A stretch of 64,000 bases of DNA from an uncultured Bryobacter sp. (GTDB taxonomy: Bacteria; Acidobacteriota; Terriglobia; Bryobacterales; Bryobacteraceae). The stretch covers positions 7,149-71,148 of the forward strand of contig CAYLXK010000024.1 of NCBI GenBank assembly GCA_964387685.1, given 5' to 3'. Under the pieces are notes generated by a model. That model searched no databases, was not told the DNA's origin, and saw only the letters and a program-made list of their open reading frames with translations. Both the position numbers and the translations under genes were made by a program. Shown piece after piece: positions 25,459 to 50,487 of this stretch (positions within the stretch are counted from its first letter, which is position 1; every line of letters starts with the position of its first letter).

Positions 25459-25553
25459 GAAACTCCCTTATCACTCGTTGCTGCCCTACACTTCAAGATT
25501 ACAGATGCCTTTCGGAAATGTGAAAGGCCAGTTTGATTCGAGGTTAGTTTACA

Positions 25554-31675: not shown

Positions 31676-32542
31676 TTAGGGTTTGTGTTCGGCGCCTTCG
31701 GTGGGAGCGACGCCTTTTTTGGCTTCACTGCCCGCGCCCATGCCCAACTCAATGCGGACTCCGGTACGGATCAGAGAGGCTTCGCTCGGTCCCTGGAAGA
31801 AAGAATAACCGGTGCGCGTGGCTTTCCATGCGAGCGGTCCCGCGACTTTCTTGCCGGCTTTGGTGACGGCATCTAAGACCTTAGTGACCATAGCTTCATA
31901 TTTGGGGTCGCCTTGCTTCAGGCCGGTGAAGCTGCTTAAGTCCGTGCTGGCGATAAAGACGACATCCACGCCGGGAACGGCGGCGAGTTCCGCGGCAATG
32001 TTGACGCCAAGCTGGGATTCGACCATGGCCACGATCATGATGTTGTCGTTGGCGATCTGGCGATAGTCCGGCCCCCAAAGCGCCCCGTACTGGCCGCCGC
32101 CCTGGCTGCGCTTGCCGCGGGGTGGGTACATGGCGAACTTGATGGCGTTCTTGATTTTTTCCACGTCGTCCACCATCGGGACGATGATGCCGGCGGCGCC
32201 CATATCGACGGCCTTTTGGATGTCGCCTTCGGTGGCATCGGGAACACGGATGAAGGGCATGGCGGGAGCGCCCTTGCAGGCCATGATCATATGCGCGACG
32301 TCCTGGTAGCTCATGGGGCTATGCTGCATTTCGATCCAGAGGAAGTCGAAGCCGGAGTTGGCCATGGCGCAATAGGTATCGGGGTCGGCCACCTGGACGG
32401 TGCCGCCGACGACCTGTTTGCCGGCGGCCAGCTTTTGCTTGACGGTGTTAAAGATGCGTGGGCCCGGTTGCTGCGCAAGCAGGCCAGAGGCGGGGAAGGA
32501 GAGCAGCGCCAGGGCGGCGGCGGATAGGAAGCGCTTCGTCAT
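31676..32542 (-). CDS. HpcH/HpaI-family aldolase with N-terminal signal peptide
   Basis: GFDFLWIEMQHSP, PFIRVP and MVESQLGV. Signal MTKRFLSAAALALLSFPASGLLAQ. Confidence 0.8.
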   Translation of the reverse strand: MTKRFLSAAALALLSFPASGLLAQQPGPRIFNTVKQKLAAGKQVVGGTVQVADPDTYCAMANSGFDFLWIEMQHSPMSYQDVAHMIMACKGAPAMPFIRVPDATEGDIQKAVDMGAAGIIVPMVDDVEKIKNAIKFAMYPPRGKRSQGGGQYGALWGPDYRQIANDNIMIVAMVESQLGVNIAAELAAVPGVDVVFIASTDLSSFTGLKQGDPKYEAMVTKVLDAVTKAGKKVAGPLAWKATRTGYSFFQGPSEASLIRTGVRIELGMGAGSEAKKGVAPTEGAEHKP

Positions 32543-32566
32543 ACCCGCCGATCATATACCTCTTGG

Positions 32567-35089: not shown

Positions 35090-35176
35090 TCTGTGGTTGC
35101 CAAATCGTGCCCTTTACGTTCTCGTGTTTTCATTAACGGACGATGACGGTTGGATGAAATTGCGGAGCGGCGGGCT

Positions 35177-35836
35177 TCAGGCGATGCGGAGGGAAATCAG
35201 GTAATCGCAAAACTCGACGACGCCGGAGCCGCGCTTGGCCGAGGTCGGCCAAATGGAAACGTCGGGGCGGATGGCGCGGATGTTGAGTTCGGCGAGGGCT
35301 TGGTCGAATTCGCAGGCGGCGGCCAAGTCCATTTTGGTGAGAACGACCACGTCGGCACTATGGAAGAGCTTCGGATACTTCAAGGGTTTGTCTTCGCCTT
35401 CGGTGGCGCTGAGCAAAACGATACGCGCGGTTTCTCCCAGATCCCAGGCGGCGGGGCAGACCAGATTGCCGATGTTTTCAATAAAGAGGAAATCAAGTTC
35501 GGAGAGGGACCAGCCTTCGAGGTGGCGCTCGACCATATCGGCTTCCAGATGGCAAAGGGTGTGCGTTTCAATCTGGCGGGCGGGGGCGCCGCTTTCGGCA
35601 AGACGGCGGGCATCGAGATCGGTTTCCAGGTCTCCAACCAGGGCGGCGGGGCGGAAGCCTTGGGTGCGGAGGTGAATAAGGACCTGCTTGAGGAGCGCTG
35701 TCTTACCGGTGCCGGGACTGGAGACCCAATTGAAGACCGTTAGGTGGGCGGCGCGGAAGCGTTGGCGGAGTTCGTGGGCCAGAGTATCGTTCTTGTGCAG
35801 AACGTTCTTGCGGATTTCCACGATGCGGGTGGTCAT
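35177..35836 (-). CDS. hypB: Hydrogenase nickel-incorporation GTPase HypB
   Basis: SSPGTGKTALL P-loop, ENIGNLVCPA and LTKMDL. No His-rich or CxxCGC N-terminal tail. Confidence 0.9.
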   Translation of the reverse strand: MTTRIVEIRKNVLHKNDTLAHELRQRFRAAHLTVFNWVSSPGTGKTALLKQVLIHLRTQGFRPAALVGDLETDLDARRLAESGAPARQIETHTLCHLEADMVERHLEGWSLSELDFLFIENIGNLVCPAAWDLGETARIVLLSATEGEDKPLKYPKLFHSADVVVLTKMDLAAACEFDQALAELNIRAIRPDVSIWPTSAKRGSGVVEFCDYLISLRIA

Positions 35837-35857
35837 AAATGAGGAGGAGCGGAGAGC

Positions 35858-36232
35858 TCAGGGGGCGGCGCCGCGGTCGTCTTCCACCTCCATTGACTCT
35901 AACCTAATGTGCTCGCCGCTGCGCAGATCGGCGGTGGGCAGCCCGCAGAGCGGGCAACGGAAGGACTGCAAGCTCGCCAAGGGAGACGTGGCGTTACAGG
36001 CGCGGCAAAAGACGGTGACGGCTTCGGGTTCGATCAGCAAAGCGGCGCCTTCGAGCGGGGTGCCGGCCGCGGCGAGGGGAAAGCTGAAGCGCAGTGCGTC
36101 CCTTGAGACGCCGCAGAGATCTCCGGCGAGGACGGTGAGGGAGAGGACGCGCGGGGTGGCGTGGCCCTCGGCTGTGTTCAGAGCCTGTAGGGCTGAATCC
36201 ACCAGGGCGTAGCTGACCGAGAGTTCATGCAT
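35858..36232 (-). CDS. hypA: Hydrogenase nickel-insertion protein HypA
   Basis: MHE N-terminal Ni motif. Zn site CRAC...CPLC. About 124 aa from ATG 36232. The upstream ORF extension was discarded. Confidence 0.85.
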   Translation of the reverse strand: MHELSVSYALVDSALQALNTAEGHATPRVLSLTVLAGDLCGVSRDALRFSFPLAAAGTPLEGAALLIEPEAVTVFCRACNATSPLASLQSFRCPLCGLPTADLRSGEHIRLESMEVEDDRGAAP

Positions 36233-36242
36233 CGAGCGCTTG

Positions 36243-36258
36243 TGGACTAGCTTATGCT
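36243..36258 (+). promoter_or_regulatory. Candidate sigma-54 (-24/-12) promoter for hypF
   Basis: TGGACTAGCTTATGCT, with GG and GC separated by 10 nt, about 26 nt upstream of ATG 36284 and with AAGG in between. Confidence 0.3.
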
Positions 36259-36283
36259 GCCGGGGCTGAGCTAAGGTTTGGGG

Positions 36284-38554: not shown

Positions 38555-38563
38555 ACTTTCGAG

Positions 38564-39946
38564 GTGTCCTTGCCCCCGCAACTTTCGCTTGCCATTGTGG
38601 ACGATAACCTGGACAGCCTGGAGCTCATGCAGGAGGCACTGCACGAGGAAGGAATCGAGGTTCACTACTTCAGCGTGCCTGAAGAGGGGCTGGAGTTCAT
38701 TCTGCAAAAGCGGCCGCAGATCGTTATGACGGACTTGGTGATGCCGCGCCTGGACGGTATGGCCATGCTGGATCGCATCATGGCGGTGGATCCGACGATC
38801 GATGTGATCCTGATGACCGCCTACTATTCGACGGAGTCCGCGGTGGAGGCGATCCGGAAGGGTGCGACAGACTATCTGGACAAGCCGATTTCCGTAGAGA
38901 CGTTGCGCAAGAGGGTGGGCAATTTAGCGCGGATGCATCGGGCGAGATTGCGGGCGCTGGATCCGCAACAGAACTACCCAAATGGCCACGAGTTTGAAGG
39001 GATGATCGGCAATAGTCCGGAAATGTGGAAACTCTACGCGCAAATCCAGCGGGTGGCGCCGCATTTTCGGACGTTGCTGGTTCAGGGAGCGACCGGGACC
39101 GGTAAGGAACTGGTGGCAAGAGCGCTACATCGTTTAAGCGGAGTGCGGGGAGAGCTGGTGGCGCTGAATTGCTCGGCGGTGGTGGAGACGTTGTTTGAGA
39201 GCGAGCTATTCGGGCACGTGAAGGGGGCCTTCACGGGAGCGACGGGAAACAAAACGGGCCTGTTTGAGCACGCGCACGAGGGTACCCTGTTTCTCGACGA
39301 GATTGGGGATATGCCGCTGGCGACGCAAGCCAAGCTGTTGCGCGCGGTGCAGCATCAGGAGGTGCAGGCCTTGGGGGCGCTAACGGCGCGGAAGGTGGAG
39401 GTGCGGGTGATTGCGGCCACGCACCGGGATCTGCGGGCGATGATTCTGGAAGGACGATTCCGCGAAGATTTGTTTTACCGTTTGGCGATGGTGGAGTTGC
39501 ATGTGCCGAGCCTGCTGCAGCGCAACGGGGATGTGGAATTGCTGGCGCGTAGCCTGACGCGGAAGTGGGCTAAACAATATGGGCGGGAACTACAGGGTTT
39601 GACGCCCCGAGCCATGACGGTGTTGAAGCGCCATTTGTGGCCGGGCAACGTGCGGGAACTGGAGAACGTAATTGGGCACGCGGCGATGATGACGCGGGGG
39701 CCGCAAATTGATGTGGCGGATTTTCCGGGATATTTGATTCGGGGCGAGCCAGGAATGGGCGAAGGGAAGCGGCGCGCGGGGGCCGGGGAGGACGCGGGCG
39801 GCCTGGCGGGTCTGGCGGAGCGGGAAAAGGAATTGCTGGTTGAGGCCTTGAATAAGAGCGGAGCCAACCAGAGCCGCGCGGCCCGGATTCTACAGATTAG
39901 CCGGGATAAGCTGCGCTACCGGATGAAGAAGTACGACCTGGACTAG
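38564..39946 (+). CDS. Sigma-54-dependent NtrC-family response regulator (HupR/HoxA-like position)
   Basis: Receiver ([13 protein letters not shown]). AAA+ ([27 protein letters not shown]). Fis-type HTH ([21 protein letters not shown]). GTG start 9 nt after the hypF stop. Confidence 0.85.
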
Positions 39947-39983
39947 GGGGCCAGGCTAGGGGGGCGAGGCTAGGGGGGCGAGG

Positions 39984-41900
39984 TTAACGGCCGAGGTGCA
40001 GGCCGACGGTAATTTGCTGCACGCCAAAGGCCTCGTATGCGAATAGGCTTTGGCCGTAAGAGATGTTACGCCATTCGGCCAGGAAGCCCAATTGGGAATG
40101 GAGGGGGATGCGCAGACGGCCCAAGGGTTGGTAGTAGCGGCTGGGGCGGCTGCCGGAGGAGCGAAAGACACTGCCGCCGAGCGTGAGGAGGCTGTGGCGG
40201 GGGAGGCGCAGGTCTGCGGCGAGAGTGCCGGTGTGTGCGTTGTCGCGGTAGAGGCTGCGCTCGGGATCGTAGCCGACGGGGTCAAGATAGGTGAGGTCGG
40301 AAAAGATGGTGGAGCGGGTGTAGTCCGCCATGACGGAGAAGGCTTTGCGGGTCCACTGGAGAGTGAGGTTGGATTGCTGGGAACGGAAATCGAGACCGAC
40401 GCCCAGGGTGGGATTGGAGTTGTTGAGGCGCACGAAGCGGGAATTGAGCTGCCAGGAATCGGAAATCTGGTAGCGGGCGCGCAGGCGGAGTTGTTCAAAG
40501 TTTTGGAGGCTAGTGCGGAAGTAGGTTTGATCGCCGCGGCCGACTTCGGTTTCGGCATTGAAGGTGAGCTTAGTAGTGGGCCGGAAGACGAAGCCACCCA
40601 GGGCGGAATGGCGGCGAAGCGCGGCGCCTTCGAGGACGGGGCCGGGAGCGAGCGAGGCGCGGCGCACCTCGGAGTCTCCCCAGAGAAAGCGGTGGCCGCC
40701 AAAGAGGGTAAAGCGCTTGCTGAAGTCGTAGAAGACCTGGAGGCGCTGTTCGTTTTGCCGCCAGATGAGGCGGTCGTTGGAATTGACCGGAGGCAGCGAG
40801 CGCGCGTCTACGGTGCTCTGGAGGAAAAGCGAACCCGCGTTGTGGGTGCGTTCGATTTGCCAGGAATCGAGGACGCGCAGGCGCGCCAGGGGCCGGACTT
40901 CGAGGGTGAGGCCGCCGGCGGTCCTGGGCTGGCTGGCATAGCCGGTGGCGAGGGATTGTTGGCCGTTAACGAAACGCAAAGTGTCCAGGCGAAGGATCGT
41001 GCCTTGCGCGGACTCATTGAACGTGACTTCGGAGCGAGGGCGGGAATAGTAGAATTCGGCGCTGATGTCGAGCCAAGCGAGGGGAGAGAGGGTGAGGTCC
41101 GCGGAGGAGTAGATGTGCCCACCGTTCACGTCATAAAGCTGCGTGGCGCGGTCTATGAGGAGAGGGCGGCCGAAGTAAGTGGATTCTCGATTGCCGGTGT
41201 TGCGCAGGGTGTTAACGAGAGAGCTTTCATCGCGGAAGCGGGCGCCGCCTTGTTCGAGGGAGAGGTGGAGCTTTTCCAGTTCCAGGCGCAGGCCACCGCG
41301 TACGACGGTGTAGCCGTAATCGATGCGGCTGGCGGCGGGGTAGCTGTTTTCGTCGAGGACGAAGGGGCTGACGCCGGAGCCGAGGCCCGTATTCTGAGCG
41401 ACGCCGAAGAAGGGGGTCCAGCGGCGGCCGGGAAGGAAGTCGAAGTCGGCGTTCCAGAAGCGCTGGCGGGTATCGGTGGCGCGCTGGTTGGTGGTGTAGG
41501 CCTCGGGGCCGAGCTTGGCGAGTTGGGGACTGGCGAAGGAAGGCAAGGCGTTGAAATAGGCGAGGTTGCGGTAACTGAAGGTGGCCCGGTAGAGGGCGGA
41601 CTTTTCCGCATTTAACAGAAAGGTGTTAAGAGGGTCGCCCCAGTTGGCGCCATGGAGGCGCAGCTCATCGAGAAAGGCGAAGGAAGGGGGCTTGTAGGTG
41701 GTCTGGAACTGGAGCAGGCGAGGACCTTCGCCGAGATTGACGATGCTGCGATAAGTGTTAAAGCTGCCGTGCTGGCCGGCAAGGGCGCGGTAGCCGATGT
41801 CGCTGGAGGCTTGGAAGGGGGATTCCGCAGGCGTGGGGGCCGCGGCTGGCTCCTGGGGGTGCATCAGGACGGCAAGGAGGAGGGACGCGAGGAGTCTCAT
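39984..41900 (-). CDS. MtrB/PioB-like outer-membrane beta-barrel (porin partner of decaheme cytochrome)
   Basis: 638 aa. Short signal peptide. Alternating hydrophobic/polar beta-strand pattern throughout with Y/F/W/R-rich girdles. ATGA overlap with the MtrA-like gene. The call rests mainly on size, composition and synteny. Confidence 0.6.
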   Translation of the reverse strand: MRLLASLLLAVLMHPQEPAAAPTPAESPFQASSDIGYRALAGQHGSFNTYRSIVNLGEGPRLLQFQTTYKPPSFAFLDELRLHGANWGDPLNTFLLNAEKSALYRATFSYRNLAYFNALPSFASPQLAKLGPEAYTTNQRATDTRQRFWNADFDFLPGRRWTPFFGVAQNTGLGSGVSPFVLDENSYPAASRIDYGYTVVRGGLRLELEKLHLSLEQGGARFRDESSLVNTLRNTGNRESTYFGRPLLIDRATQLYDVNGGHIYSSADLTLSPLAWLDISAEFYYSRPRSEVTFNESAQGTILRLDTLRFVNGQQSLATGYASQPRTAGGLTLEVRPLARLRVLDSWQIERTHNAGSLFLQSTVDARSLPPVNSNDRLIWRQNEQRLQVFYDFSKRFTLFGGHRFLWGDSEVRRASLAPGPVLEGAALRRHSALGGFVFRPTTKLTFNAETEVGRGDQTYFRTSLQNFEQLRLRARYQISDSWQLNSRFVRLNNSNPTLGVGLDFRSQQSNLTLQWTRKAFSVMADYTRSTIFSDLTYLDPVGYDPERSLYRDNAHTGTLAADLRLPRHSLLTLGGSVFRSSGSRPSRYYQPLGRLRIPLHSQLGFLAEWRNISYGQSLFAYEAFGVQQITVGLHLGR

Positions 41901-42883
41901 CGCAAGAAGTCCCGGCTAATGTGAGAGCCATGCACCTTGGAGTGGCACACCGTGCAGTTTTGGTAGACGGGCAAGCGCAGGTCGTGAAAGCCGGTGGGAA
42001 CGGTTCCAAGCGTGCCGGAGCGGTTAGAGAGGGCAGGGGTGTTGGCGTGGCATTCGAGACAGAGGTTGCTGACTTGGGCGCGATTCAGAAGGCGGGGATT
42101 GGCCGAGCCATGATTCTCGTGGCAAGCGGAGCAGCCTTCGAGGCGAATAGGGGCGTGCTCAAAGACGAAGGGACCGCGCTTGTCGGCGTGGCACTTGAAG
42201 CAACCGGGTTCGGCGTTCGTGGTGCGGGCGGTAGTGTTAAGGCCGAAGGGCCGTGAAGTGCCGTGGGGATTGTGGCAATCGATGCAGGACATGGCGCCCG
42301 CGGGGACGGCGTGGCCATGGGGGCGCTGGAAGGAAGCCCAGGCGCTGGCGTGGCAGGTGGAACAGAGTTCATTGACGCGCGTGGCCCGGGAGGTAGGAAG
42401 AGCCAAGCGGCTCAGTGACGCGGGGGATTGAGGCGTGAAATCCCGAAAGAGGGGAACGGAGGAATCGTTTAAGGCATGGTGAACCGAGTGACAAGAGACG
42501 CAGGAGACTTGTACCTTGGCGTGGGAACCGCTGATGCGGCCGGCGTGGGTGGCCTGATTCTTGTGGCAGGACAAGCAGGAAGAGTCCGCCTCGCGGGGCG
42601 TGGCTTTGCTGTGATTGAGAATGAACTTGGCTTCGGCGGCTTCGCCGTGCTTTAAGCCCGGCCCGTGGCAGGATTCGCAGGACTGGCCTTTCCAGCCGCG
42701 GACGGTGTCCGTTTCCACTTTGCCGTGGCGAGATTTCAAGAAGGCCTTGCCGAGGTCCTCATGGCAAACCAGGCAGGCTTCGGTGCCGGCGTAGCCCTCT
42801 TTGTCCGTGCGCGCTTTTTTGGGCGCAGCGAAGGTGGCGGCAGCCAGCACAAAGAAAATCGCCGAGGCGACCAGGGGCCGCAT
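41897..42883 (-). CDS. MtrA/DmsE-family periplasmic decaheme c-type cytochrome
   Basis: 328 aa, signal peptide, ten CxxCH sites. Blocks collinear with Shewanella MtrA as I recall it: CESCHGPGLKH, CIDCHNPHG, CFKCHADKRGPFVFEHAP...CSACHENHGS...CLECHA, and C-terminal CTVCHSKVHGS. Confidence 0.85.
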   Translation of the reverse strand: MRPLVASAIFFVLAAATFAAPKKARTDKEGYAGTEACLVCHEDLGKAFLKSRHGKVETDTVRGWKGQSCESCHGPGLKHGEAAEAKFILNHSKATPREADSSCLSCHKNQATHAGRISGSHAKVQVSCVSCHSVHHALNDSSVPLFRDFTPQSPASLSRLALPTSRATRVNELCSTCHASAWASFQRPHGHAVPAGAMSCIDCHNPHGTSRPFGLNTTARTTNAEPGCFKCHADKRGPFVFEHAPIRLEGCSACHENHGSANPRLLNRAQVSNLCLECHANTPALSNRSGTLGTVPTGFHDLRLPVYQNCTVCHSKVHGSHISRDFLR

Positions 42884-42884
42884 G

Positions 42885-44924
42885 CTATTGAGCGTGAACT
42901 CTGGCCACGGAGAACTCGGCGTTGGGGCCGTGGCAGACGGTGCAGCTCTCCCCCAGCGGCGCGGTGTTCAGTTGCGCGTGGGCCGCCGCCTCCTTGGAGG
43001 TGTGGCAACTGAGGCAGGCGGCCGAGGTGGCCCCGGGCGTGGTCAGCCAAGCTCGCGGGTCCGTGACGGGCAGCAGATTTGGCCGCAGGGGCAGGTTCTG
43101 CGAATTATTGACGTGGCAGGTGCTGCAATTGGCGGCGGTGGTGGGGAAGCCGATGTTACTGAAGTCGTTGACGGAGGCGTTAAAACCGTAAATGATGAGC
43201 GGCCGGCCCTGTTCCTTGCCGGTATGGATCCGGTGGATCATCGAGGCAAAGCTGATGCTTTCATTGGGGGCCTGGGCGGCGGGACGGCGAGCGGAGTCCG
43301 TCATGGTGGAGTTGTGGCAAACAACGCACTCGGAAATTTCATTGCGGTTGCGGCCGTGGGCTTCGATGCGCGTGTGGCAGACATTGCACTTCTCGGTGGT
43401 TACGACTTGGCGACGGGGCTCGACCCGGGAAGAGTCCACGCTGAAATAGGTAATGACATTTTTGAGGGGATCGCGGACGGTGGTGGGAATGCGGCCGGGA
43501 CCTTCAAAAGAAACGTTGCGGTAGCCTTCGGCGCTGATGGAGTAGGTGCCCTGGGCGTCGCTGGGGATGGCGCGAGCAAAGCGGTGCGACGCGGTGCCGC
43601 TGGGGGAAAGGGTATCGGTGCGGGAGGCTTCCGACCAGTACGCGGTGTAATCGGGCGCGGGCCCGGCGAGAATGAGCGAAAGCGCCGTCATATCTGTTGG
43701 GGCAAGAATCTTGCCTTCGGAATCCTTGAGGCGATAGGTAATCGTCGGGTTTTGGCCGGGCGCGGTATCGCGTACCTCAAGCAGCTCGATCGTCTGGCCT
43801 TTGAGATTTTTCGAAAACTCGGGAACGACATGGGCGCCCTTGACGGAGATATCCCACTCGCGTTCTCCCTCGGGCCGGTGGCACTGGGAGCAACGGGAAT
43901 CGTCGGTCTGGGCAATGTGACCTTTGCCGGCGGCGAAATCAATGCCGTCGTGGCAGGAGCCGCAAGCGGCGCGGGTCGGGTTAAACAGGGCCGTGGCCTG
44001 GGACGCCGCGTTGGGGCCGGATTGGGTATGGCAAGCGGCACAATTGCGTGGGTTGGCCGGGAAGCCGATGGTGGAGTAATCGTGAAGGGTCTGCTGGTTT
44101 CCGATGATGGTGTACTTCGTGCCGGCCCGGACGCTGGGCAGATCCTTACCCATGTGGATCTTATGGGTCAGCACGGTCATGTCGACGGTATTGCCGGTGT
44201 CGGGGTCTACGGTTTGGGGGGTATGGCAGAGAACGCACATTTCCATGCCGCGGCGGGAGCCGCCATGGGCGGATAGCGTCACGTGGCAGGTTGTGCACGA
44301 AGCGGTTTTGATGACGTCGCGCACCTGAGTGACAGGGCTGCCGTCGGGGACGAAATCGAAGGTGGCGCTGGCGTAGTTGGTGCCGAGGTCGAAGGCGGTG
44401 AGGTTACGGTTGGAGTAGGCCCCAATAGTGTGAGTAGCGGTGCGGTCGAAATTGGCGGGGGCGCGGGTGCGGAAGGTGTAAGTGTACTCGCCGTCGTCGT
44501 TCTTGACCCAGGTGCCACCGGTGTCGGCGGCCGCCTGCGTGGCCGAGACGCGGGTAATGGGACTGGTTTGGATGCGCGTGGTGTAGGAGGTGTAAACGGA
44601 TTGATCTTTGGGCAAGAAGGCGGCGACAAAACTGATGGAGACGGGGCCGGGCGTGAAGACGCCTTCGCGGTCGAGAGGAACCCCCAAGGGATCGGTGATG
44701 CGGACCCGCGCCGCCATCGAGCCGTCGGGATTGACGACGGCGGCGACGATCTTCAAGTTAAGGCCCGGCCGGACGAAATTGATCGTCTTTTCGTCGGCGT
44801 AGAAGGCCTTCTCCAGTTCGCTGAAACTGCGCTTGCCCAGGCCTGTGGCGAGAGAGGCGGCGGCGAGAAGCAGCCCCACGACGGTGGGCCAGAAGTATCG
44901 ATGGGTTCGAAAAAACATGCTCAT
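42885..44924 (-). CDS. MtrC/OmcA-like decaheme c-type cytochrome (5+5 heme architecture)
   Basis: Ten CxxCH in two clusters of five (ORF residues 269-408 and 572-724), each preceded by a 160-210 aa heme-free region. Paralogous halves (THKIHMGK / IHRIHTGK). Start MSMFF overlaps the upstream stop (ATGA). ATG 44918 is an alternative start with GGAGGA 5 nt upstream. Confidence 0.65.
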   Translation of the reverse strand: MSMFFRTHRYFWPTVVGLLLAAASLATGLGKRSFSELEKAFYADEKTINFVRPGLNLKIVAAVVNPDGSMAARVRITDPLGVPLDREGVFTPGPVSISFVAAFLPKDQSVYTSYTTRIQTSPITRVSATQAAADTGGTWVKNDDGEYTYTFRTRAPANFDRTATHTIGAYSNRNLTAFDLGTNYASATFDFVPDGSPVTQVRDVIKTASCTTCHVTLSAHGGSRRGMEMCVLCHTPQTVDPDTGNTVDMTVLTHKIHMGKDLPSVRAGTKYTIIGNQQTLHDYSTIGFPANPRNCAACHTQSGPNAASQATALFNPTRAACGSCHDGIDFAAGKGHIAQTDDSRCSQCHRPEGEREWDISVKGAHVVPEFSKNLKGQTIELLEVRDTAPGQNPTITYRLKDSEGKILAPTDMTALSLILAGPAPDYTAYWSEASRTDTLSPSGTASHRFARAIPSDAQGTYSISAEGYRNVSFEGPGRIPTTVRDPLKNVITYFSVDSSRVEPRRQVVTTEKCNVCHTRIEAHGRNRNEISECVVCHNSTMTDSARRPAAQAPNESISFASMIHRIHTGKEQGRPLIIYGFNASVNDFSNIGFPTTAANCSTCHVNNSQNLPLRPNLLPVTDPRAWLTTPGATSAACLSCHTSKEAAAHAQLNTAPLGESCTVCHGPNAEFSVARVHAQ

Positions 44925-46318
44925 CCTCCAAGTTCCTGTATTGCCTTCAGATTCTTCTCTTCGACGCCCAGGACCTTGTGGCAGGCCTCGCAATCCTGGG
45001 TAATGGCTTTGCCGGGCGTTTTTGCCTTCAAGTCGTCGCCATGACAGCGGAAGCAACCGGGTGAGGCCGTGTGCCCGACATGTTGGGGATAGGTTCCCCA
45101 AGTGATTTTCATTTCCGGAAAGACGTTGCGGCGGTGGAGTGTGGCCAGTTCCTGGCTGGCTTGGCCGAGCGTGGAGGCGTGGGTCGCGAGGGCCGCCGGT
45201 TGATGAAGGCGGTAGTAGCGATTCAGCTCCTCGGCGATGGCTTTAGAGGGGTCGGGCTTGGAGGCGTAGTCTTTGGCCAGGACTTCCAAGGCGGCCCGAC
45301 GGAAGAAAGGAATCGATTGGGGAAGCCGGCCCTGGGTCATGGCGAGATCGATGGCCCGTTCAGGATTCTCAAATTCATGGGCGGGCCGATTGTGGCAATC
45401 GAGACAATCCATGCGCCGGCTAAAGGCGGCTTTGGCTTTGCCCGAGCTAAAGTCGGCCGACTCATAGGTGTCGGTTTGACCTCCCTTGGTCACGCGAACG
45501 GCCAGGATGGTTTCGCGCTTAGGGTCGGCGGCGTCATAGTCGATGCTCAGGCCGCGGCCCATGTGGGCGCCGTGAATGCCTTGGCCCTCGGCGCCCCCCA
45601 GTTTTAGCAGTAGCGCGGTCTCCAGGCGTTCGCCCTGGTCGTCGAACTGGGTGCGCCGCCAGAGGCGATTGCCGTAGTCGTGATTGCGGGAGTGGCAGTT
45701 CTCACAGGTTTCCGAGGCCGGTTTGAGGGCATGAGGTGGAGAGGGAATGGGACGGTTGTATCCGCCGGTCATCACGAGAAAGAGTTGCCGGGTTCCATTG
45801 AGCTTGGCGCGGATGGCGTTGCCCGCGCCTTCGCCAATGTGGCAGGCGACGCATTTAACTTGCGCATGGGAACCAGCCTGATAGGCGCGATGTTCGGGAT
45901 CCATGACATGGCAAGCGGTGCCGCAGAAGTTGGTGCTCTCCATGTAATGGACGGCCTGGTAGGTAAGCGCCCCGCCGATGACGAGATTGACAAAGGTTGC
46001 TCCCGCGATAAAGACGAGAAAGCGCCGGATCTTGGGGTTGCTGAGCTCGATTTTTTCCGGCCAGTGGATTTGGTGATCCGGGGCCTCGCGCCGGCGCTGC
46101 ATGCTGATGCCGATGGGCACCAGGAGGAGCCCTAGGAAGAAGGCGGCGGGTAGAGCGACAAACTGGAGAATGCCGAGGTATCCGGAGGCCTCGCTCGCGC
46201 CCGTCAGGAAGATCCAGAGGACCATAGCCGAAAGCACGAAGAAGAAGCCGGTGCGGCTGATCCAGTTGTCGGTTAAATAGAGTACCGGCAAGAGCCAGCG
46301 CTGTGCGAATTTCCCCAT
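44921..46318 (-). CDS. Membrane-anchored NapC/NirT-like multiheme cytochrome (candidate quinol dehydrogenase)
   Basis: 465 aa with three N-terminal TM helices. NapC-like TNFCGTACHVM...SHAQVKCVACH. Five CxxCH (CVACH, CENCH, CLDCH, CFRCH, CEACH) plus one CxxxCH (CGTACH). Confidence 0.7.
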   Translation of the reverse strand: MGKFAQRWLLPVLYLTDNWISRTGFFFVLSAMVLWIFLTGASEASGYLGILQFVALPAAFFLGLLLVPIGISMQRRREAPDHQIHWPEKIELSNPKIRRFLVFIAGATFVNLVIGGALTYQAVHYMESTNFCGTACHVMDPEHRAYQAGSHAQVKCVACHIGEGAGNAIRAKLNGTRQLFLVMTGGYNRPIPSPPHALKPASETCENCHSRNHDYGNRLWRRTQFDDQGERLETALLLKLGGAEGQGIHGAHMGRGLSIDYDAADPKRETILAVRVTKGGQTDTYESADFSSGKAKAAFSRRMDCLDCHNRPAHEFENPERAIDLAMTQGRLPQSIPFFRRAALEVLAKDYASKPDPSKAIAEELNRYYRLHQPAALATHASTLGQASQELATLHRRNVFPEMKITWGTYPQHVGHTASPGCFRCHGDDLKAKTPGKAITQDCEACHKVLGVEEKNLKAIQELGG

Positions 46319-46687: not shown

Positions 46688-46703
46688 AGCAAGTGAGTGG
46701 CCA
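46688..46703 (-). promoter_or_regulatory. Sigma-54-like -24/-12 element upstream of the cytochrome operon (weak; implies a near-leaderless mRNA)
   Basis: The minus strand reads TGGCCACTCACTTGCT with correct GG-N10-GC spacing. The GC lies only 13 nt before the ATG. Confidence 0.2.
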
Positions 46704-46840: not shown

Positions 46841-46856
46841 TGGCCCCCTGATTGCA
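46841..46856 (+). promoter_or_regulatory. Candidate sigma-54 (-24/-12) promoter for the hydrogenase operon
   Basis: TGGCCCCCTGATTGCA against the consensus TGGCAC-N5-TTGCA. About 28 nt upstream of ATG 46885, with AAAGGAAG as RBS. Confidence 0.45.
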
Positions 46857-46884: not shown

Positions 46885-48000
46885 ATGATGCTGGCCACCG
46901 CACCCGCTTCAACGTCTCAAGTTCTTCAACGGCGAGGAATTAGCCGCCGCGACATACTCACTTTTTGCACTATGACGGCCGCGTCCCTCGGCCTGCCCCC
47001 GGAGGCGGCGGCGCAAATCGCCGAGGCGCTGGAAACAAAGCCGCGCATCCCGGTGCTTTGGATTCATGGGTTGGAATGCACGTGTTGCAGCGAATCGTTT
47101 CTGAGGTCGACGCACCCGGTTGCGCAGGACATTCTGTTCAACATGATTTCGCTGGATTATGACGACACGCTCCAGGCCGCGGCGGGCCATCAGGCCGAAG
47201 AGATCCGCAAGCGAATCATGAAGGAGTACAAAGGCCAATACCTGCTGGCGGTGGAAGGCAACGCGCCTACCAACGACGGGGGCGTCTATTGCACGGTGGG
47301 CGGCGAAACGTTTACGAGCATTCTGGAAGAGGCCGCGGCGGGCGCCAAGGCCATCCTGGCCTGGGGCAGCTGCGCGTCCAACGGATGTGTGCAGGCGGCT
47401 TACCCAAACCCGACCGGCGCGAAGCCCGTGTACAAGATGATCACCGACAAGCCGGTCATCAACGTGCCCGGATGCCCGCCGATTGCGGAAGTGATGACCG
47501 GGGTATTGAGCTATCTCCTGACCTTCGACCGGATTCCGGAACTGGATGCGTTCCGGCGGCCGAAGATGTTTTACGGGCAGCGGATTCATGACCGCTGCTA
47601 CCGAAGGAGCTACTTTGACGCGGGGCAATTTGTTGAGAAGTGGGACGACGAGGGGGCGCGGAAGGGTTGGTGCCTTTACAAGATGGGGTGCCGCGGTCCG
47701 TCAACCTACAATGCCTGCGCTTCGATGAAGTGGAACGAGTGTGTTTCGTTCCCGATCGGTTCTGGGCATGGCTGTTTCGGATGCTCGGAAGACAATTTTT
47801 GGGATAACGGACCGTTCTATGAGCGCTTGGCGAATATTCCGGTGCCGACCACGGACCTGACGGCGGACCGGGTAGGTCTGGGCTTGAGCGCCGTGGTAGC
47901 CGGGGCGATTGCCGCGCATGGAGTGGCGGCGCTAGCCAAACACAATCTGACGCAGATCAAAGCAGCCCCCGCAAGCAGTACGACGAAGCCGGAAGCCTAG
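46885..48000 (+). CDS. hyaA: [NiFe] hydrogenase small subunit, group 1 (Hyd-1/MBH-like), Tat signal, C-terminal TM anchor
   Basis: [12 protein letters not shown] Tat motif. [33 protein letters not shown]-terminal helix [20 protein letters not shown]. Near-collinear with E. coli HyaA as I recall it. Confidence 0.9.
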
Positions 48001-48009
48001 GAGCCAGCT

Positions 48010-49737
48010 ATGTCTACCCGAGTCGTAGTAGACCCGATTACCCGCATTGAAGGACATCTGCGGGTGGAAGCGATCCTGAACGATCGGAATGTGATTGGCG
48101 ACGCCTTGTCCAGCGGGACGATGTGGCGCGGGATCGAATTGATTGTGCAGGGGCGGGACCCAAGAGAGGTATGGGCCTTCGCCGAACGGATTTGCGGGGT
48201 GTGTACGACGATCCACGCGCTGGCCAGCGTGCGCAGCGTGGAGAACGCGCTCGGAATCGAGATCCCGAAAAACGCAAGCATTATCCGCCAACTGATGAAC
48301 TTTACGCAGATCGTGCAGGATCACGTGATTCACTTTTATCACCTGCATGCGTTGGACTGGGTGGATGTGGTGTCGGCGCTGAAAGCGGATCCGGCGGCGA
48401 CCTCGGCGCTGGCGCAGAAGGTGTCGCCGCACTGGCCCAAGTCCTCGCCGGGCTACTTTGCCGATACGGCGGCGACGTTGAAGAAGTTTGTCGATTCCGG
48501 TCAACTCGGTATCTTTCAGAATGCCTACTGGGGCCATCCCGCCTACAAGCTGCCGCCAGAGGCGAATCTGATGGCGGTGGCGCACTATCTCGAAGCGCTG
48601 CAGTGGCAAAAGGAAGTGGCCAAGATCCACACGGTATTTGGAGGCAAGAATCCGCATCCCAACTATCTGGTGGGGGGCGTGGCGTGCGCGATCAGTCTCG
48701 AGGGCGACAACGCGCCGATCAATATGGAGCGGCTGAATTTTGTCAAGGATCTGATCACGGAAGCGATCCGGATCGTCGAGCAGCTTTATATTCCGGACCT
48801 AGTGGCGATCGCGAGCTTTTATCCGGAATGGACGAAGATCGGCGGGGGGCTGGGTAGCTTCATGTCCTACGGCGACATGCCGACGGACTACGATTTGGGC
48901 AATCCGTCGAAGTTCCGTTTTCCGCGCGGGGTGATTCTGAACAAGAAACTGGGCGAAGTGCTGCCGCTGGACCTGGCGGACTTTGGCCAGGTGCAGGAGG
49001 AGGTGACGCACTCCTGGTACGAGTACGGGAACGGGAAGCAGACCTTGCACCCATGGGAAGGCGAGACGAAGGCAAAGTATTCGGGGCCGAAACCGCCTTA
49101 TAAGCAATTGGATGAAACGCAAGGATACTCCTGGGTGAAGACCCCTCGCTGGCGAGGGCACGCGGTGGAAGTAGGGCCGCTGGCGCGGATGGTGATCGGC
49201 TATGCCTCGGGCAATGGGCCGATTCGGGATGCCGTCAAGTGGGGATTGGAGACGACGAAATTGCCGATCGAGGCGTTGTTTTCGACACTCGGACGGACCT
49301 TTGCGCGGGGCCTCGAGACGAAGCTGGCCGTGCACTGGATGAGGGACGAGTTCAACAACTTGATGGCGAATCTGAAAGCGGGCGATTTGACGACTGCGGC
49401 GACAGCGAAATGGGATCCGTCCAGTTGGCCGAAGGAGGCCAAGGGAGTGGGCTTTGTGGAGGCGCCGCGCGGCTCGTTGGGACATTGGATCCGGATCCAG
49501 GATCAGAAGACGGCGTCCTACCAGATCGTGGTGCCGTCGACATGGAACGCCTCGCCTCGCGATGCCAAGGGCCAGCACGGCGCCTATGAGGCTGCGCTGA
49601 TTGGCACGCCAATGGTGGACGGGATGAAGCCCGTCGAGATACTGCGGACGATTCATTCGTTCGACCCCTGCCTGGCCTGCGCGACGCATGTAATGGGCGC
49701 GGGCGGTGAAACCCTGGCCAAGGTAATTGTGCGTTAG
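48010..49737 (+). CDS. hyaB: [NiFe] hydrogenase large subunit, group 1
   Basis: VVDPITRIEGH. L1 motif ERICGVCTTIH. L2 motif SFDPCLACATH followed by a 15-aa tail for endopeptidase cleavage. Confidence 0.95.
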   Translation: MSTRVVVDPITRIEGHLRVEAILNDRNVIGDALSSGTMWRGIELIVQGRDPREVWAFAERICGVCTTIHALASVRSVENALGIEIPKNASIIRQLMNFTQIVQDHVIHFYHLHALDWVDVVSALKADPAATSALAQKVSPHWPKSSPGYFADTAATLKKFVDSGQLGIFQNAYWGHPAYKLPPEANLMAVAHYLEALQWQKEVAKIHTVFGGKNPHPNYLVGGVACAISLEGDNAPINMERLNFVKDLITEAIRIVEQLYIPDLVAIASFYPEWTKIGGGLGSFMSYGDMPTDYDLGNPSKFRFPRGVILNKKLGEVLPLDLADFGQVQEEVTHSWYEYGNGKQTLHPWEGETKAKYSGPKPPYKQLDETQGYSWVKTPRWRGHAVEVGPLARMVIGYASGNGPIRDAVKWGLETTKLPIEALFSTLGRTFARGLETKLAVHWMRDEFNNLMANLKAGDLTTAATAKWDPSSWPKEAKGVGFVEAPRGSLGHWIRIQDQKTASYQIVVPSTWNASPRDAKGQHGAYEAALIGTPMVDGMKPVEILRTIHSFDPCLACATHVMGAGGETLAKVIVR

Positions 49738-49746
49738 GAGCGGCTT

Positions 49747-50487
49747 ATGTCCTCACAAATTCAGGACCCGCAGACTCAAGCCATGGCCGCGCCGGGCGAG
49801 GCGGAAAGGCCGGAATCCCGCTACGTGTGGGAGAGCCCGGTGCGGATCTTTCATTGGATGATTGCGCTGGCGATTCCCGTGCTGCTGGCCACGGGCTTTT
49901 ATATAGCCTGGCCTTTTGCCTCCGTGCAGGGGGAGGCGACGGGAAACTTCTTGATGGGGAGGATGCGGCAGATTCATTTTGGGGCGGGCTACGTGTTGCT
50001 GGCCGCGTTTGCCATTCGGATTTACTGGTTTTTTGCGGGCAATCATTATGCGCGGTCGGGTTTTCCCTTCGTCTGGAAGAAGGCCTGGTGGACGCATCTG
50101 GGCGAGCAGGCGCGCGAGTACCTCACAATTCGCCTCACGAAGCGCTTTGTGGGCCACAACCAGTTGGGCGCCTTGAGCTACCTGCTCTTTGTGGGACTCA
50201 TGGGCGGCGCAGAAATCGCCACCGGCTTTGCGATGTATAGCGAATCGAATCCGGGAGGATTCTGGAGCCGGGTCTTCGGCTGGGTGATTCCGTTCTGTGG
50301 CGGTTCCTATCAAACCCACCAATGGCATCATTTCTTTGCCTGGGGCATTCTGCTGTTTATTGCGATTCACATTTATATCGTGGTGCTGGACAGCATTTAC
50401 CTCGATAACGGAATGGTGGGCAGTATCTTTACCGGACGCAAGTTTGTAAGGAGCACGGATGCCGACAGCAAGACCTGGATCAGTTAA
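49747..50487 (+). CDS. hyaC: Ni/Fe-hydrogenase b-type cytochrome subunit
   Basis: PVRIFHWMIALAIPVLLATGFYI. Four TM helices with conserved His (HFGAGY, HQWHHFF). Confidence 0.85.
   Translation: MSSQIQDPQTQAMAAPGEAERPESRYVWESPVRIFHWMIALAIPVLLATGFYIAWPFASVQGEATGNFLMGRMRQIHFGAGYVLLAAFAIRIYWFFAGNHYARSGFPFVWKKAWWTHLGEQAREYLTIRLTKRFVGHNQLGALSYLLFVGLMGGAEIATGFAMYSESNPGGFWSRVFGWVIPFCGGSYQTHQWHHFFAWGILLFIAIHIYIVVLDSIYLDNGMVGSIFTGRKFVRSTDADSKTWIS

What the first reader, a model, noticed from the sequence alone, without database searches (positions are those of the whole stretch)
39984..42883. MtrA-like decaheme plus MtrB-like barrel pair with 4-nt ATGA coupling
The 328-aa protein carries exactly ten CxxCH motifs: CLVCH, CESCH, CLSCH, CVSCH, CSTCH, CIDCH, CFKCH, CSACH, CLECH, CTVCH. 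Its conserved blocks are collinear with Shewanella MtrA as I remember it (CxxCHGPxxxH; CxDCHNPHG; CxxCHAxKRGPxxxEHAP; C-terminal CxxCHSxVHGS).

Its stop overlaps the start of a 638-aa protein that has a signal peptide and beta-barrel-like alternating sequence. That length would fit a barrel of roughly 26 strands. The barrel lacks the N-terminal CxxC seen in Shewanella MtrB and ends in ...VGLHLGR rather than an aromatic residue.

This porin-plus-insertable-decaheme pair is the defining core of Mtr/Mto/Pio conduits.
Basis: partly seen in the sequence, partly recalled or inferred. Interest (0 to 1): 0.8.

Follow-up and report, generated by a model that had tools for sequence, protein, structure and literature searches.

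The report
Acidobacterial MtrCAB electron conduit operon
The two genes are a real ten-haem cytochrome and its outer-membrane barrel, part of a complete MtrCAB-type system for passing respiratory electrons out of the cell; this kind of system is already described in this group of Acidobacteria, though here its gene neighbours differ.

Summary
Every sequence observation holds. The 328-aa protein has exactly the ten listed CxxCH motifs. Its stop overlaps the start of a Cys-free 638-aa ORF by ATGA, and that ORF ends in ...VGLHLGR.

The 328-aa protein passes NCBIfam's DmsE/MtrA decaheme cutoff and aligns with solved MtrA (E 1.5e-34).

The 638-aa protein hits no curated model. Even so, it is a remote MtrB/PioB homologue:
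- Its family profile matches a proteobacterial MtrB profile end to end (hhalign 98%, E 2.5e-13).
- Its AlphaFold model (pLDDT 85) is a large barrel whose best PDB match is MtrB (6R2Q_B, TM 0.70; next best ≤0.50).

The pair is the tail of a five-gene operon: monoheme cytochrome c, an ImcH-type inner-membrane cytochrome, an MtrC/OmcA decaheme, MtrA, MtrB. The operon has a conserved σ54-type promoter. It sits back to back with a [NiFe] uptake hydrogenase, and a σ54 response regulator gene lies just downstream.

Relatives occur in 420 GTDB species loci; the 80 inspected are all Bryobacterales/Acidobacteriota, and mtrA sits next to the barrel gene in every one.

MtrCAB in Bryobacterales is already published (Baker 2022, "Group 5"), so this is a new member of a known kind. 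What is new lies in the surroundings: ImcH adjacency, a non-lipoprotein MtrC, and the hydrogenase/σ54 linkage.

The parts
39984..41900 (-). mtrB-like outer-membrane beta-barrel, 638 aa, Cys-free, C-terminus ...VGLHLGR
   Evidence: No Pfam or NCBIfam hit of its own. AF2 model pLDDT 85.1, all-beta. Best PDB fold match 6r2q_B (MtrB), E 3.9e-14, TM 0.70/0.69; the next hits are 22-strand TonB-dependent receptors at TM <=0.50. hhalign of the family profile A1 against the proteobacterial MtrB profile A2: 98.0% probability, E 2.5e-13, 569 columns.
41897..42883 (-). mtrA-like periplasmic decaheme c-type cytochrome, 328 aa, ten CxxCH, 4-nt ATGA overlap with mtrB
   Evidence: Motifs and overlap confirmed. 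TIGR03508 226.6 bits > cutoff 192.2. 6R2Q_A E 1.5e-34. 29% identity, E 4e-37 to Photobacterium MtrA. 25 His in total, i.e. 15 besides the ten in the motifs.
42885..44918 (-). mtrC/omcA-family extracellular decaheme cytochrome, 677 aa from the ATG at 44918 (the mechanical ORF runs up to 45101); one base between its stop and the mtrA start
   Evidence: TIGR03507 477.8 bits > cutoff 209.3, aligned over the full profile. PF22113 MtrC/MtrF domains II/IV. MtrF 3PMQ E 6.4e-33, also OmcA and MtrC structures. Ten CxxCH, no other Cys in the 677-aa product, no lipobox. The gene caller in the public collection uses the same start.
44921..46318 (-). ImcH-type inner-membrane multiheme cytochrome (putative quinol oxidase), 465 aa: three N-terminal TM segments, CX3CH at residue 132, five CX2CH
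   Evidence: Motifs. TM-like segments about 19-44, 44-74 and 97-120. PF03264 NapC/NirT over residues 101-188. NrfH 2J7A_C E 4e-4, with a one-residue insertion that creates the CX3CH. Architecture and heme-motif spacing match the ImcH homologues tabulated in PMC6295460.
46358..46675 (-). monoheme class-I cytochrome c with signal peptide, 105 aa, first gene of the operon
   Evidence: One CxxCH. PF00034/PF13442 in the precomputed annotation. Conserved upstream of the imcH-like gene in 21 related loci.
46688..46703 (-). sigma54-type -24/-12 promoter element TGGCCACTCACTTGCT (GG-N10-GC) about 13 nt upstream of the cytochrome c start codon
   Evidence: A GG-N10-GC element lies within the ~300 nt searched upstream of the cytochrome c gene in all 21 related loci examined, about 30 nt from the mapped match start where that start is complete. 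The strict motif occurs only 9 times in 2 x 64 kb.
46841..46856 (+). second sigma54-type element TGGCCCCCTGATTGCA, facing the divergent hydrogenase operon
   Evidence: A back-to-back pair of oppositely oriented elements is present in all six loci that carry the divergent hydrogenase.
38564..39946 (+). sigma54-dependent (NtrC-family) response regulator, convergent with mtrB (37-nt gap), directly downstream of hypF
   Evidence: Full-length matches (386.7 and 371.4 bits, E 1e-115 and 6.5e-111) to the AtoC and NtrC sigma54-activator models, both below those models' curated cut-offs of 714 and 558.6 bits, so it is an NtrC-family member and not AtoC or NtrC itself. Response_reg + Sigma54_activat + HTH_8 domains. 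Same convergent position after mtrB in 12 related loci, including ones that lack the hydrogenase.
46888..50487 (+). context: membrane-bound [NiFe] uptake hydrogenase (small subunit, large subunit, b-type cytochrome), divergent from the mtr operon
   Evidence: TIGR00391 507.5 bits; large subunit NF007550 736 bits (below its equivalog cutoff); TIGR02125 184.2 bits. Same divergent arrangement in L005, L006, L007, L009 and L011.

Best explanation
The two genes are the MtrA and MtrB subunits of a complete MtrCAB-type porin-cytochrome conduit in a Bryobacter-like acidobacterium.

Proposed path of electrons:
1. Quinol in the inner membrane is oxidised by the ImcH-type cytochrome. In this genomic context the quinone pool could be reduced by the adjacent uptake hydrogenase.
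2. Electrons cross the periplasm, possibly through the monoheme cytochrome c.
3. They enter the ten-haem MtrA, which sits inside the roughly 26-stranded MtrB barrel and spans the outer membrane.
4. They leave through the surface decaheme MtrC to an extracellular acceptor such as Fe(III)/Mn(IV) oxide or humic substances.

The ATGA overlap couples translation of MtrA and MtrB, which fits a 1:1 complex. Transcription probably starts at a sigma54 promoter activated by the NtrC-type regulator encoded next to mtrB.

Shown here: family identity of MtrA and MtrC; remote homology and fold of MtrB; operon order; conserved synteny; the promoter motif.
Inferred: that MtrA threads the barrel; the direction of electron flow; the role of the monoheme cytochrome; the link to H2; sigma54 regulation.
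For: MtrA:
- ten CxxCH;
- TIGR03508 above its cutoff;
- 6R2Q_A E 1.5e-34.

MtrB:
- AF2 barrel, pLDDT 85;
- best fold hit is MtrB of the solved Mtr complex, TM 0.70 normalised either way, so the barrel is the same size; the next hits are TM <=0.50;
- profile-profile match to bona fide TIGR03509 MtrBs, 98% probability, E 2.5e-13 across 569 columns;
- five relatives about 40% identical to it pass Pfam PF11854's gathering cutoff with collinear partial matches, and 17 of 45 family members hit PF11854.

MtrC:
- TIGR03507 478 bits;
- MtrF, OmcA and MtrC structures hit.

Synteny:
- all 80 related genome loci have mtrA directly upstream of the barrel gene;
- 69 of the 72 loci with at least 1 kb upstream of mtrA also have mtrC.

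ImcH-type gene:
- it has the hallmark 3 TM + CX3CH + CX2CH architecture;
- its motif spacing (+24, +49, +100, +117, +21) is almost the same as that of Solibacter usitatus Acid_0432, listed as an ImcH homologue (+24, +49, +102, +117, +20).

Regulation: a sigma54-type element is conserved in 21 of 21 loci.

Literature: MtrCAB 'Group 5' in Bryobacterales (PMC8805035).
Against: - The barrel itself scores nothing against TIGR03509 or PF11854. It also scores nothing against MtrB of 6R2Q, either by phmmer or by a family HMM.
- It lacks the CXXC of gammaproteobacterial MtrB and a C-terminal aromatic residue.
- Its signal peptide is short and atypical.
- MtrC has no lipobox, so how it is held at the surface is unknown.
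- No co-fold or biochemical evidence shows that MtrA inserts into this barrel.
- The direction of electron flow is inferred only from the presence of MtrC and ImcH.
- No cultured close relative was examined.
Confidence: 0.85

Rival explanations
1. Same hardware, opposite direction. The conduit takes electrons in, from Fe(II), a cathode or a reduced mineral, as proposed for MtoAB/PioAB, and passes them to the quinone pool or the periplasm.
For: MtrA-family cytochromes work in both directions in known systems (established knowledge; PMC6295460 discusses CymA and CbcL homologues in both reducers and oxidisers). The monoheme class-I cytochrome c at the head of the operon resembles the periplasmic carriers of iron oxidisers such as MtoD.
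Against: Mto/Pio clusters lack an MtrC-type surface decaheme, which is present here. The inner-membrane partner is ImcH-type. PMC6295460 found that type only in Fe(III) reducers and interprets it as a quinol oxidase only. The neighbouring hydrogenase is an uptake type with a cytochrome b, which feeds electrons into the quinone pool.
Confidence: 0.12
2. A DmsEF-type conduit that serves a dedicated extracellular terminal reductase (for example for DMSO or another soluble compound), rather than mineral respiration.
For: The best NCBIfam model is named 'DmsE family'. MtrA/DmsE paralogues are interchangeable in Shewanella (established knowledge).
Against: No molybdopterin oxidoreductase genes lie next to the pair. 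The only neighbours in the operon are cytochromes, and the outer partner is an MtrC/OmcA decaheme.
Confidence: 0.02
3. Not a conduit: a periplasmic decaheme cytochrome that merely lies next to an unrelated large porin or transporter barrel.
For: The barrel has no curated family hit, and TonB-dependent receptors also appear among its fold matches.
Against: - Fold matches to TonB receptors are much weaker (TM <=0.50 against 0.70).
- No plug domain is predicted: the model is barrel strands from residue 29 on.
- The profile-profile match to MtrB runs the full length.
- The mtrA-barrel adjacency is invariant in 80 of 80 loci, and start/stop overlap recurs.
Confidence: 0.01

Closest known systems
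MtrCAB 'Group 5' of Acidobacteriia/Bryobacterales (Baker et al. 2022, mBio, PMC8805035)
   Same: - Same order of bacteria. The five published members include Ca. Solibacter usitatus Ellin6076 and Bryobacteraceae bacterium Spst337.
- Same C-A-B gene order.
- Same sizes: Spst337 has MtrC of 677 aa and MtrA of 326 aa.
- Same 4-nt mtrA/mtrB overlap, and MtrB is likewise annotated 'hypothetical protein'.
- No mtrC duplicates.
   Different: The paper says every Group 5 member has a periplasmic tetraheme cytochrome directly downstream of mtrB and no inner-membrane quinol oxidoreductase nearby.

In the window no cytochrome gene follows mtrB; a convergent sigma54 regulator does. An ImcH-type cytochrome plus a monoheme cytochrome c precede mtrC.

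The tetraheme arrangement is found in a more distant subclade, with about 40% barrel identity. Phylogenetic placement inside Group 5 was not computed here.
Shewanella MtrCAB (structure 6R2Q; S. baltica)
   Same: - Decaheme MtrA collinear with the solved chain.
- Barrel with the same fold and size as MtrB.
- MtrC-family surface decaheme.
- mtrC-mtrA-mtrB order.
   Different: - MtrB is beyond the reach of sequence-profile searches.
- It has no N-terminal CXXC. Photobacterium MtrB has CSDC at residue 39; 31 of 45 members of the acidobacterial family have no Cys at all.
- The C-terminal residue is basic (R in 26 of 45) instead of aromatic.
- MtrC lacks the lipoprotein lipobox and has no non-haem cysteines, so it has no domain-III disulfide.
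- The inner-membrane partner is ImcH-type, not CymA.
ImcH of Geobacter sulfurreducens and its homologues (Levar et al. 2014; Zhong and Shi 2018, PMC6295460)
   Same: - Three N-terminal TM helices.
- An atypical CX3CH right after TM3, followed by CX2CH motifs.
- NapC/NirT similarity limited to TM3 plus the first haems.
- Motif spacing as in the six-haem Solibacter homologue.
   Different: - Six haem motifs rather than the seven of Geobacter ImcH.
- PMC6295460 reports that no mtrAB/mtoAB was found next to any imcH. Here imcH is in the same operon as mtrCAB, and this holds in 26 of the 80 related loci.
- No direct alignment with GSU3259 could be made.
MtoAB / PioAB iron-oxidation conduits
   Same: A decaheme plus an MtrB/PioB-family barrel as an adjacent pair.
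   Different: Those clusters lack an MtrC-type surface cytochrome and pair with CymA/MtoC/PioC-type partners.

Membership tests
DmsE/MtrA family decaheme c-type cytochrome (TIGR03508) | Ten CxxCH haem-binding motifs in a protein of about 300-350 aa | tested here: met
   Exactly ten motifs, 20 Cys all inside them, 328 aa.
DmsE/MtrA family decaheme c-type cytochrome (TIGR03508) | Score at or above the curated cutoff of the family model | tested here: met
   226.6 bits against a cutoff of 192.2. The rival GSU2203-family model scores 196.8, below its cutoff of 325.
DmsE/MtrA family decaheme c-type cytochrome (TIGR03508) | Collinear alignment with structurally characterised MtrA | tested here: met
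   6R2Q_A E 1.5e-34, two stretches covering residues 30-138 and 171-321. Photobacterium MtrA E 4e-37.
DmsE/MtrA family decaheme c-type cytochrome (TIGR03508) | Enough histidines for bis-His ligation of ten haems, and export to the periplasm | tested here: inconclusive
   25 His, i.e. 15 outside the motifs. Hydrophobic N-terminus ...AAATFA|AP. No signal-peptide predictor and no ligand assignment.
MtrB/PioB family outer-membrane protein (TIGR03509 / PF11854) | Score at or above the curated cutoff of the family models | tested here: not met
   No hit at E <=1 to either model. Five relatives about 40% identical pass PF11854's 23-bit cutoff with partial matches of 27-35 bits, but none approaches TIGR03509's 240 bits.
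MtrB/PioB family outer-membrane protein (TIGR03509 / PF11854) | Homology to bona fide MtrB over the whole barrel | tested here: met
   hhalign of A1 (45 acidobacterial sequences) against A2 (30 proteobacterial MtrBs, including Shewanella, Vibrio and Aeromonas): probability 98.0%, E 2.5e-13, columns 37-655 against 40-688. The comparison against a single MtrB sequence was not significant.
MtrB/PioB family outer-membrane protein (TIGR03509 / PF11854) | Large (26-strand) beta-barrel without a plug | tested here: met
   AF2 pLDDT 85.1, with 27 DSSP strand elements between residues 29 and 637. Best PDB match 6r2q_B, TM 0.70/0.69. The exact strand number could not be counted from coordinates.
MtrB/PioB family outer-membrane protein (TIGR03509 / PF11854) | Gene directly follows the decaheme gene | tested here: met
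   ATGA overlap in the window. mtrA lies directly upstream in 80 of 80 related loci.
MtrB/PioB family outer-membrane protein (TIGR03509 / PF11854) | N-terminal CXXC (a feature of MtrB in metal-reducing Gammaproteobacteria, not of the whole family) | tested here: not met
   Zero Cys. 31 of 45 family members have none, whereas Photobacterium MtrB has CSDC at residue 39.
MtrB/PioB family outer-membrane protein (TIGR03509 / PF11854) | The decaheme is sheathed inside the barrel | not testable with these tools
This needs AF-Multimer/AF3 or an experiment.
OmcA/MtrC family decaheme cytochrome (TIGR03507) | Score above the curated cutoff, ten CxxCH, four-domain layout | tested here: met
   477.8 bits against a cutoff of 209.3, aligned to profile positions 5-672 of 672. 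Two PF22113 pentaheme domains. MtrF 3PMQ E 6.4e-33.
OmcA/MtrC family decaheme cytochrome (TIGR03507) | Lipoprotein signal (lipobox Cys) and the conserved domain-III disulfide of the Shewanella clade | tested here: not met
   No Cys outside the ten motifs in the 677-aa product. Bryobacterales MtrC N-termini lack a lipobox, whereas Photobacterium has LLAAC.
ImcH family inner-membrane cytochrome | Three N-terminal TM helices, CX3CH next to TM3, 5-9 CX2CH, NapC/NirT similarity around TM3 (definition from PMC6295460) | tested here: met
   Motif spacing matches listed ImcH homologues.
ImcH family inner-membrane cytochrome | Direct sequence homology to G. sulfurreducens ImcH (GSU3259) | not tested
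Baker et al. MtrCAB Group 5 | Bryobacterales/Acidobacteriia host with mtrC, mtrA and mtrB clustered | tested here: met
   The closest genomes are Bryobacter/Bryobacteraceae MAGs. Cluster confirmed.
Baker et al. MtrCAB Group 5 | Tetraheme cytochrome immediately downstream of mtrB; no inner-membrane quinol oxidoreductase nearby | tested here: not met
   The window has no cytochrome gene downstream and has an ImcH-type gene upstream.
Baker et al. MtrCAB Group 5 | Placement in the Group 5 clade of a concatenated MtrCAB tree | not tested
   The reference sequences of the paper were not retrievable here.

The most novel reading that the evidence does not exclude
In a freshwater Bryobacter lineage the outer-membrane MtrCAB module has been joined in a single sigma54-controlled operon to a Geobacter-type ImcH quinol oxidase and a monoheme cytochrome c. 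That operon is transcribed back to back with a [NiFe] uptake hydrogenase from a shared pair of sigma54 promoters. This would form a compact 'hydrogen-to-mineral' respiratory island.

Its MtrB clade is invisible to the curated models TIGR03509 and PF11854. If so, tools that require a match to those models would score hundreds of Bryobacterales species as lacking MtrB, and the capacity of soil and lake Acidobacteria for extracellular electron transfer would be underestimated.
Probability: 0.4. Interest if true: 0.55.

Novelty: new member of a known kind. Interest (0 to 1): 0.35.

Why it matters
Bryobacterales are abundant in soils, peat and lakes, yet few are cultured.

The locus shows that a full inner-membrane-to-surface electron path is encoded in one operon. 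It also shows that the barrel component escapes the standard annotation models: relatives sit in 420 species-level genomes, and wherever a source names them they are called 'hypothetical protein'.

That affects surveys of iron-cycling potential that depend on those models. It also offers a natural ImcH-MtrCAB hybrid for testing how modular these pathways are.

For the pair itself the result is mostly confirmatory. It extends a published group (five members in 2022) rather than revealing a new mechanism.

Tried and rejected
- phmmer of the barrel, and hmmsearch with its 45-sequence family profile, against PDB sequences found nothing meaningful. The only hits were a WD-repeat protein at E 1.7 and HslV at E 0.42; MtrB of 6R2Q was not recovered.
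- hhalign of the family profile against a single Photobacterium MtrB was not significant (probability 0.8%). Only the profile-profile comparison worked.
- The exhaustive representative search found 1743 cluster representatives. Only the best 150 were listed, so the distant tail, where proteobacterial MtrBs might appear, could not be read.
- Scanning ten of its more divergent full-length hits against Pfam gave no useful bridge: one weak PF11854 hit at E 0.006.
- Cluster look-ups returned no accession numbers, so the source genome and Baker's Spst337 protein could not be matched by identifier.
- tblastn of MtrA against plasmids gave a single record, a Photobacterium 2.1-Mb replicon. It served as the source of reference MtrCAB sequences.
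- Co-folding MtrA with MtrB is not possible with the single-chain predictor.
- The DmsEF-type and 'unrelated porin' readings were considered and rejected (see rival explanations).
- A replication origin was looked for at the GC-skew switch, but no dnaA or other hallmark gene lies there.

Full report
**1. Observation**

The minus strand between 39984 and 42883 carries two ORFs exactly as described.

- ORF 41897..42883 encodes 328 aa with ten CxxCH motifs. These are CLVCH, CESCH, CLSCH, CVSCH, CSTCH, CIDCH, CFKCH, CSACH, CLECH and CTVCH, at residues 37 to 310. There are no other cysteines.
- Its last codons read TTG CGA TGA. The ATG of the next ORF overlaps the stop, giving the ATGA overlap.
- ORF 39984..41900 encodes 638 aa with no cysteine at all. 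It ends ...VGLHLGR.

**2. The decaheme**

- The protein passes NCBIfam's curated cutoff for the DmsE/MtrA family (TIGR03508, 226.6 bits against 192.2).
- The related GSU2203-family model stays below its cutoff.
- phmmer against all PDB sequences returns chain A of 6R2Q, the solved Mtr complex, at E 1.5e-34.
- Against the MtrA of a Photobacterium mtrCAB cluster fetched as a reference, it shows 29% identity at E 4e-37.
- It has 25 histidines, enough for ten proximal and ten distal ligands.

**3. The barrel**

No Pfam or NCBIfam model hits the protein. MtrB of 6R2Q is not recovered either by single-sequence search or by a family-HMM search of PDB. Four other lines of evidence establish what it is.

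(a) Predicted structure. An AlphaFold2 model was built on 45 homologues.
- It is confident (mean pLDDT 85.1, pTM 0.72).
- It is all-beta from residue 29 to the C-terminus, with 27 DSSP strand elements and no plug domain.

(b) Fold comparison. Foldseek against PDB ranks MtrB (6r2q_B) first, with E 3.9e-14 and TM 0.70/0.69 normalised on either chain.
- This means the same fold and the same size.
- Every other hit is a 22-strand TonB-dependent receptor or a SusC-like barrel at TM 0.50 or less.

(c) Profile-profile comparison. I built a reference alignment of 30 proteobacterial MtrB/PioB proteins from Photobacterium, Vibrio, Aeromonas, Shewanella and more distant sequences.
- The Photobacterium seed scores 551 bits on TIGR03509.
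- The acidobacterial family profile matches this alignment with 98.0% probability and E 2.5e-13, over 569 columns from end to end.

(d) Weak direct hits among relatives.
- Seventeen of the 45 family members give weak PF11854 hits.
- Five relatives about 40% identical pass Pfam's gathering threshold with collinear partial matches.

The protein is therefore a remote but genuine MtrB/PioB homologue. It fails the curated models, so membership by the family's own cutoffs is not met. Membership by homology, fold and context is met.

**4. The rest of the operon**

- Directly upstream of mtrA, one base apart, lies a 677-aa OmcA/MtrC-family decaheme. It scores 478 bits on TIGR03507 over the full profile, and hits MtrF at E 6.4e-33 as well as the OmcA and MtrC structures. 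The system is therefore MtrCAB, not a two-gene Mto/Pio pair.
- Upstream of mtrC is a 465-aa cytochrome with three N-terminal hydrophobic segments, an atypical CX3CH (CGTACH at residue 132) right after the third segment, and five CX2CH motifs.
- Its NapC/NirT similarity is limited to residues about 100-190. This is the architecture that Zhong and Shi (PMC6295460) give as the signature of ImcH homologues.
- Its motif spacing is almost the same as that of Solibacter usitatus Acid_0432, which they list as an ImcH homologue.
- A 105-aa monoheme cytochrome c with a signal peptide heads the operon.
- These five are the only genes with a confirmed cytochrome c identity in the 64-kb window; one further 140-codon open frame, 31896..32318 (-), holds a single CxxCH and was not examined.

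**5. Regulation and neighbourhood**

- About 13 nt upstream of the cytochrome c start codon is a sigma54-type -24/-12 element, TGGCCACTCACTTGCT.
- A GG-N10-GC element lies upstream of the cytochrome c gene, within the ~300 nt searched, in all 21 related loci examined. The strict motif occurs only nine times in both strands of the window.
- A second element faces the other way, toward a divergent [NiFe] uptake hydrogenase operon (small subunit, large subunit, b-type cytochrome).
- The back-to-back pair is present in all six loci that share this arrangement.
- A sigma54-dependent NtrC-family response regulator is encoded convergently, 37 nt beyond mtrB.
- The regulator keeps that position in 12 related loci, including ones without the hydrogenase. 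It is therefore linked to the mtr operon more consistently than to the hydrogenase.
- Regulation by sigma54 and a functional link to H2 oxidation are inferences from these patterns, not demonstrated.

**6. Distribution**

- A scan of one genome per GTDB species found 420 loci encoding a relative of the barrel. The best 80 are all Bryobacterales/Acidobacteriota MAGs.
- The closest is a Lake Mendota Bryobacter MAG with 72% barrel identity, so the window comes from a different species of that lineage.
- The identical protein occurs on nine public contigs.
- In all 80 loci mtrA lies directly upstream of the barrel gene.
- mtrC is found in 69 of the 72 loci that have at least 1 kb upstream of mtrA.
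- Start/stop overlap of mtrA and mtrB recurs in several sublineages.
- The cytochrome c - imcH - mtrCAB order is shared by 26 loci.
- A more distant subclade, with about 40% barrel identity, instead carries a ~368-aa tetraheme cytochrome just after mtrB. In some of those loci an imcH-like gene and a monoheme gene follow it.

**7. Comparison with what is known**

Baker et al. 2022 (PMC8805035) surveyed MtrCAB and defined 'Group 5'.
- It consists only of Acidobacteriia/Bryobacterales, with five members, including Ca. Solibacter usitatus Ellin6076 and Bryobacteraceae bacterium Spst337.
- In their table Spst337 MtrB is a 'hypothetical protein' whose start overlaps the mtrA stop by four bases. MtrC is 677 aa and MtrA 326 aa. 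This is the same anatomy as here.
- They state that every Group 5 member has a tetraheme cytochrome downstream of mtrB and none has an inner-membrane quinol oxidoreductase nearby.
- Zhong and Shi state that no mtrAB/mtoAB was found next to any imcH.
- The window's sublineage departs from both statements.
- Searches of the open-access library found no paper that mentions ImcH, MtrC and Bryobacter together. That shows absence from that library only.

Differences from the Shewanella archetype, read directly from the sequences:
- no CXXC in MtrB;
- a basic rather than aromatic C-terminal residue (R in 26 of 45 family members);
- no lipobox and no non-haem cysteine in MtrC.

**8. Mechanism and confidence**

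Most likely (0.85) the pair forms the transmembrane core of a porin-cytochrome conduit. MtrA would sit inside MtrB, receive electrons from the ImcH-type quinol oxidase across the periplasm, and hand them to MtrC at the surface.

The outward (reducing) direction is favoured by two things:
- the presence of MtrC;
- the ImcH-type partner, which PMC6295460 found only in Fe(III) reducers.

Inward flow cannot be excluded (0.12).

Insertion of MtrA into the barrel is inferred from homology to 6R2Q and could not be modelled here.

**9. Verdict**

The finding is real and correctly interpreted, but it belongs to a published group, so it is a new member of a known kind.

The moderately new points lie around the pair:
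- the ImcH-MtrCAB operon;
- the sigma54/hydrogenase linkage;
- the fact that a widespread MtrB clade is missed by the curated models.

Interest 0.35.

Noticed in passing
window 32000-46000, with a sign change near 23000-26000: GC skew on the + strand is unusually strong (up to 0.30 in 2-kb windows) and does not depend on gene orientation. Third-codon-position skew is +0.44 to +0.52 in + strand genes (hypF, the response regulator) and -0.49 to -0.62 in - strand genes (mtrB, mtrA, mtrC, the LTD protein). Left of about 23 kb the sign is reversed. No dnaA or other origin hallmark lies at the switch; the genes there encode a TPR protein, an adenylate cyclase and a GAF-SpoIIE phosphatase.
   Followed up: partly
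window 46688-46703 (-) and 46841-46856 (+): Two oppositely oriented sigma54-type -24/-12 elements lie in the ~210-bp divergent region between the cytochrome operon and the [NiFe] hydrogenase operon. The back-to-back pair is conserved in all six loci with this arrangement. The element for the cytochrome operon lies so close to the ATG that the transcript would be nearly leaderless.
   Followed up: partly
window 39947-39983: The 37-nt gap between the convergent stops of mtrB and the response regulator is filled by three tandem copies of a ~14-nt unit (minus strand: CCTCGCCCCCCTAG CCTCGCCCCCCTAG CCTGGCCCCCTAG). No function was tested.
   Followed up: no
window 36278-39946 (+): hypF ends at 38554 and the sigma54 response regulator starts at 38564, so the two appear to be co-transcribed. 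In relatives that lack the hydrogenase, the regulator still sits after mtrB without hypF.
   Followed up: partly
window 32567-35089 (-): An 840-aa secreted-looking protein with two lamin-tail domains (PF00932, 118 bits) and a weak phytase-like/esterase region lies next to the hyp genes.
   Followed up: no
L061 and L063 (Bryobacterales MAGs SJ154 and SJ149), also L044: These loci have the mtrA-mtrB pair but no detectable MtrC homologue in the 1.4-7 kb upstream. They may be two-gene conduits or have a different surface partner.
   Followed up: no
L042, L047-L049, L051, L054, L058, L066, L069, L070, L072, L076, L077, L079, L081, L084: In the distant subclade a ~362-377-aa tetraheme cytochrome follows mtrB directly, as Baker et al. 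describe for Group 5. Several of these loci (L049, L070, L079) then continue with a six-haem imcH-like gene, and some carry further 9-11-haem cytochromes. An inner-membrane partner therefore seems commoner near Group 5 clusters than was reported from five genomes.
   Followed up: partly
window 44918-44924 (-): The stop of the imcH-like gene (TGA) overlaps an in-frame ATG of mtrC, giving a second ATGA. A second ATG six bases downstream has a better-placed GGAGG and is the start used by the public gene call. The true mtrC start is therefore ambiguous by two codons.
   Followed up: partly
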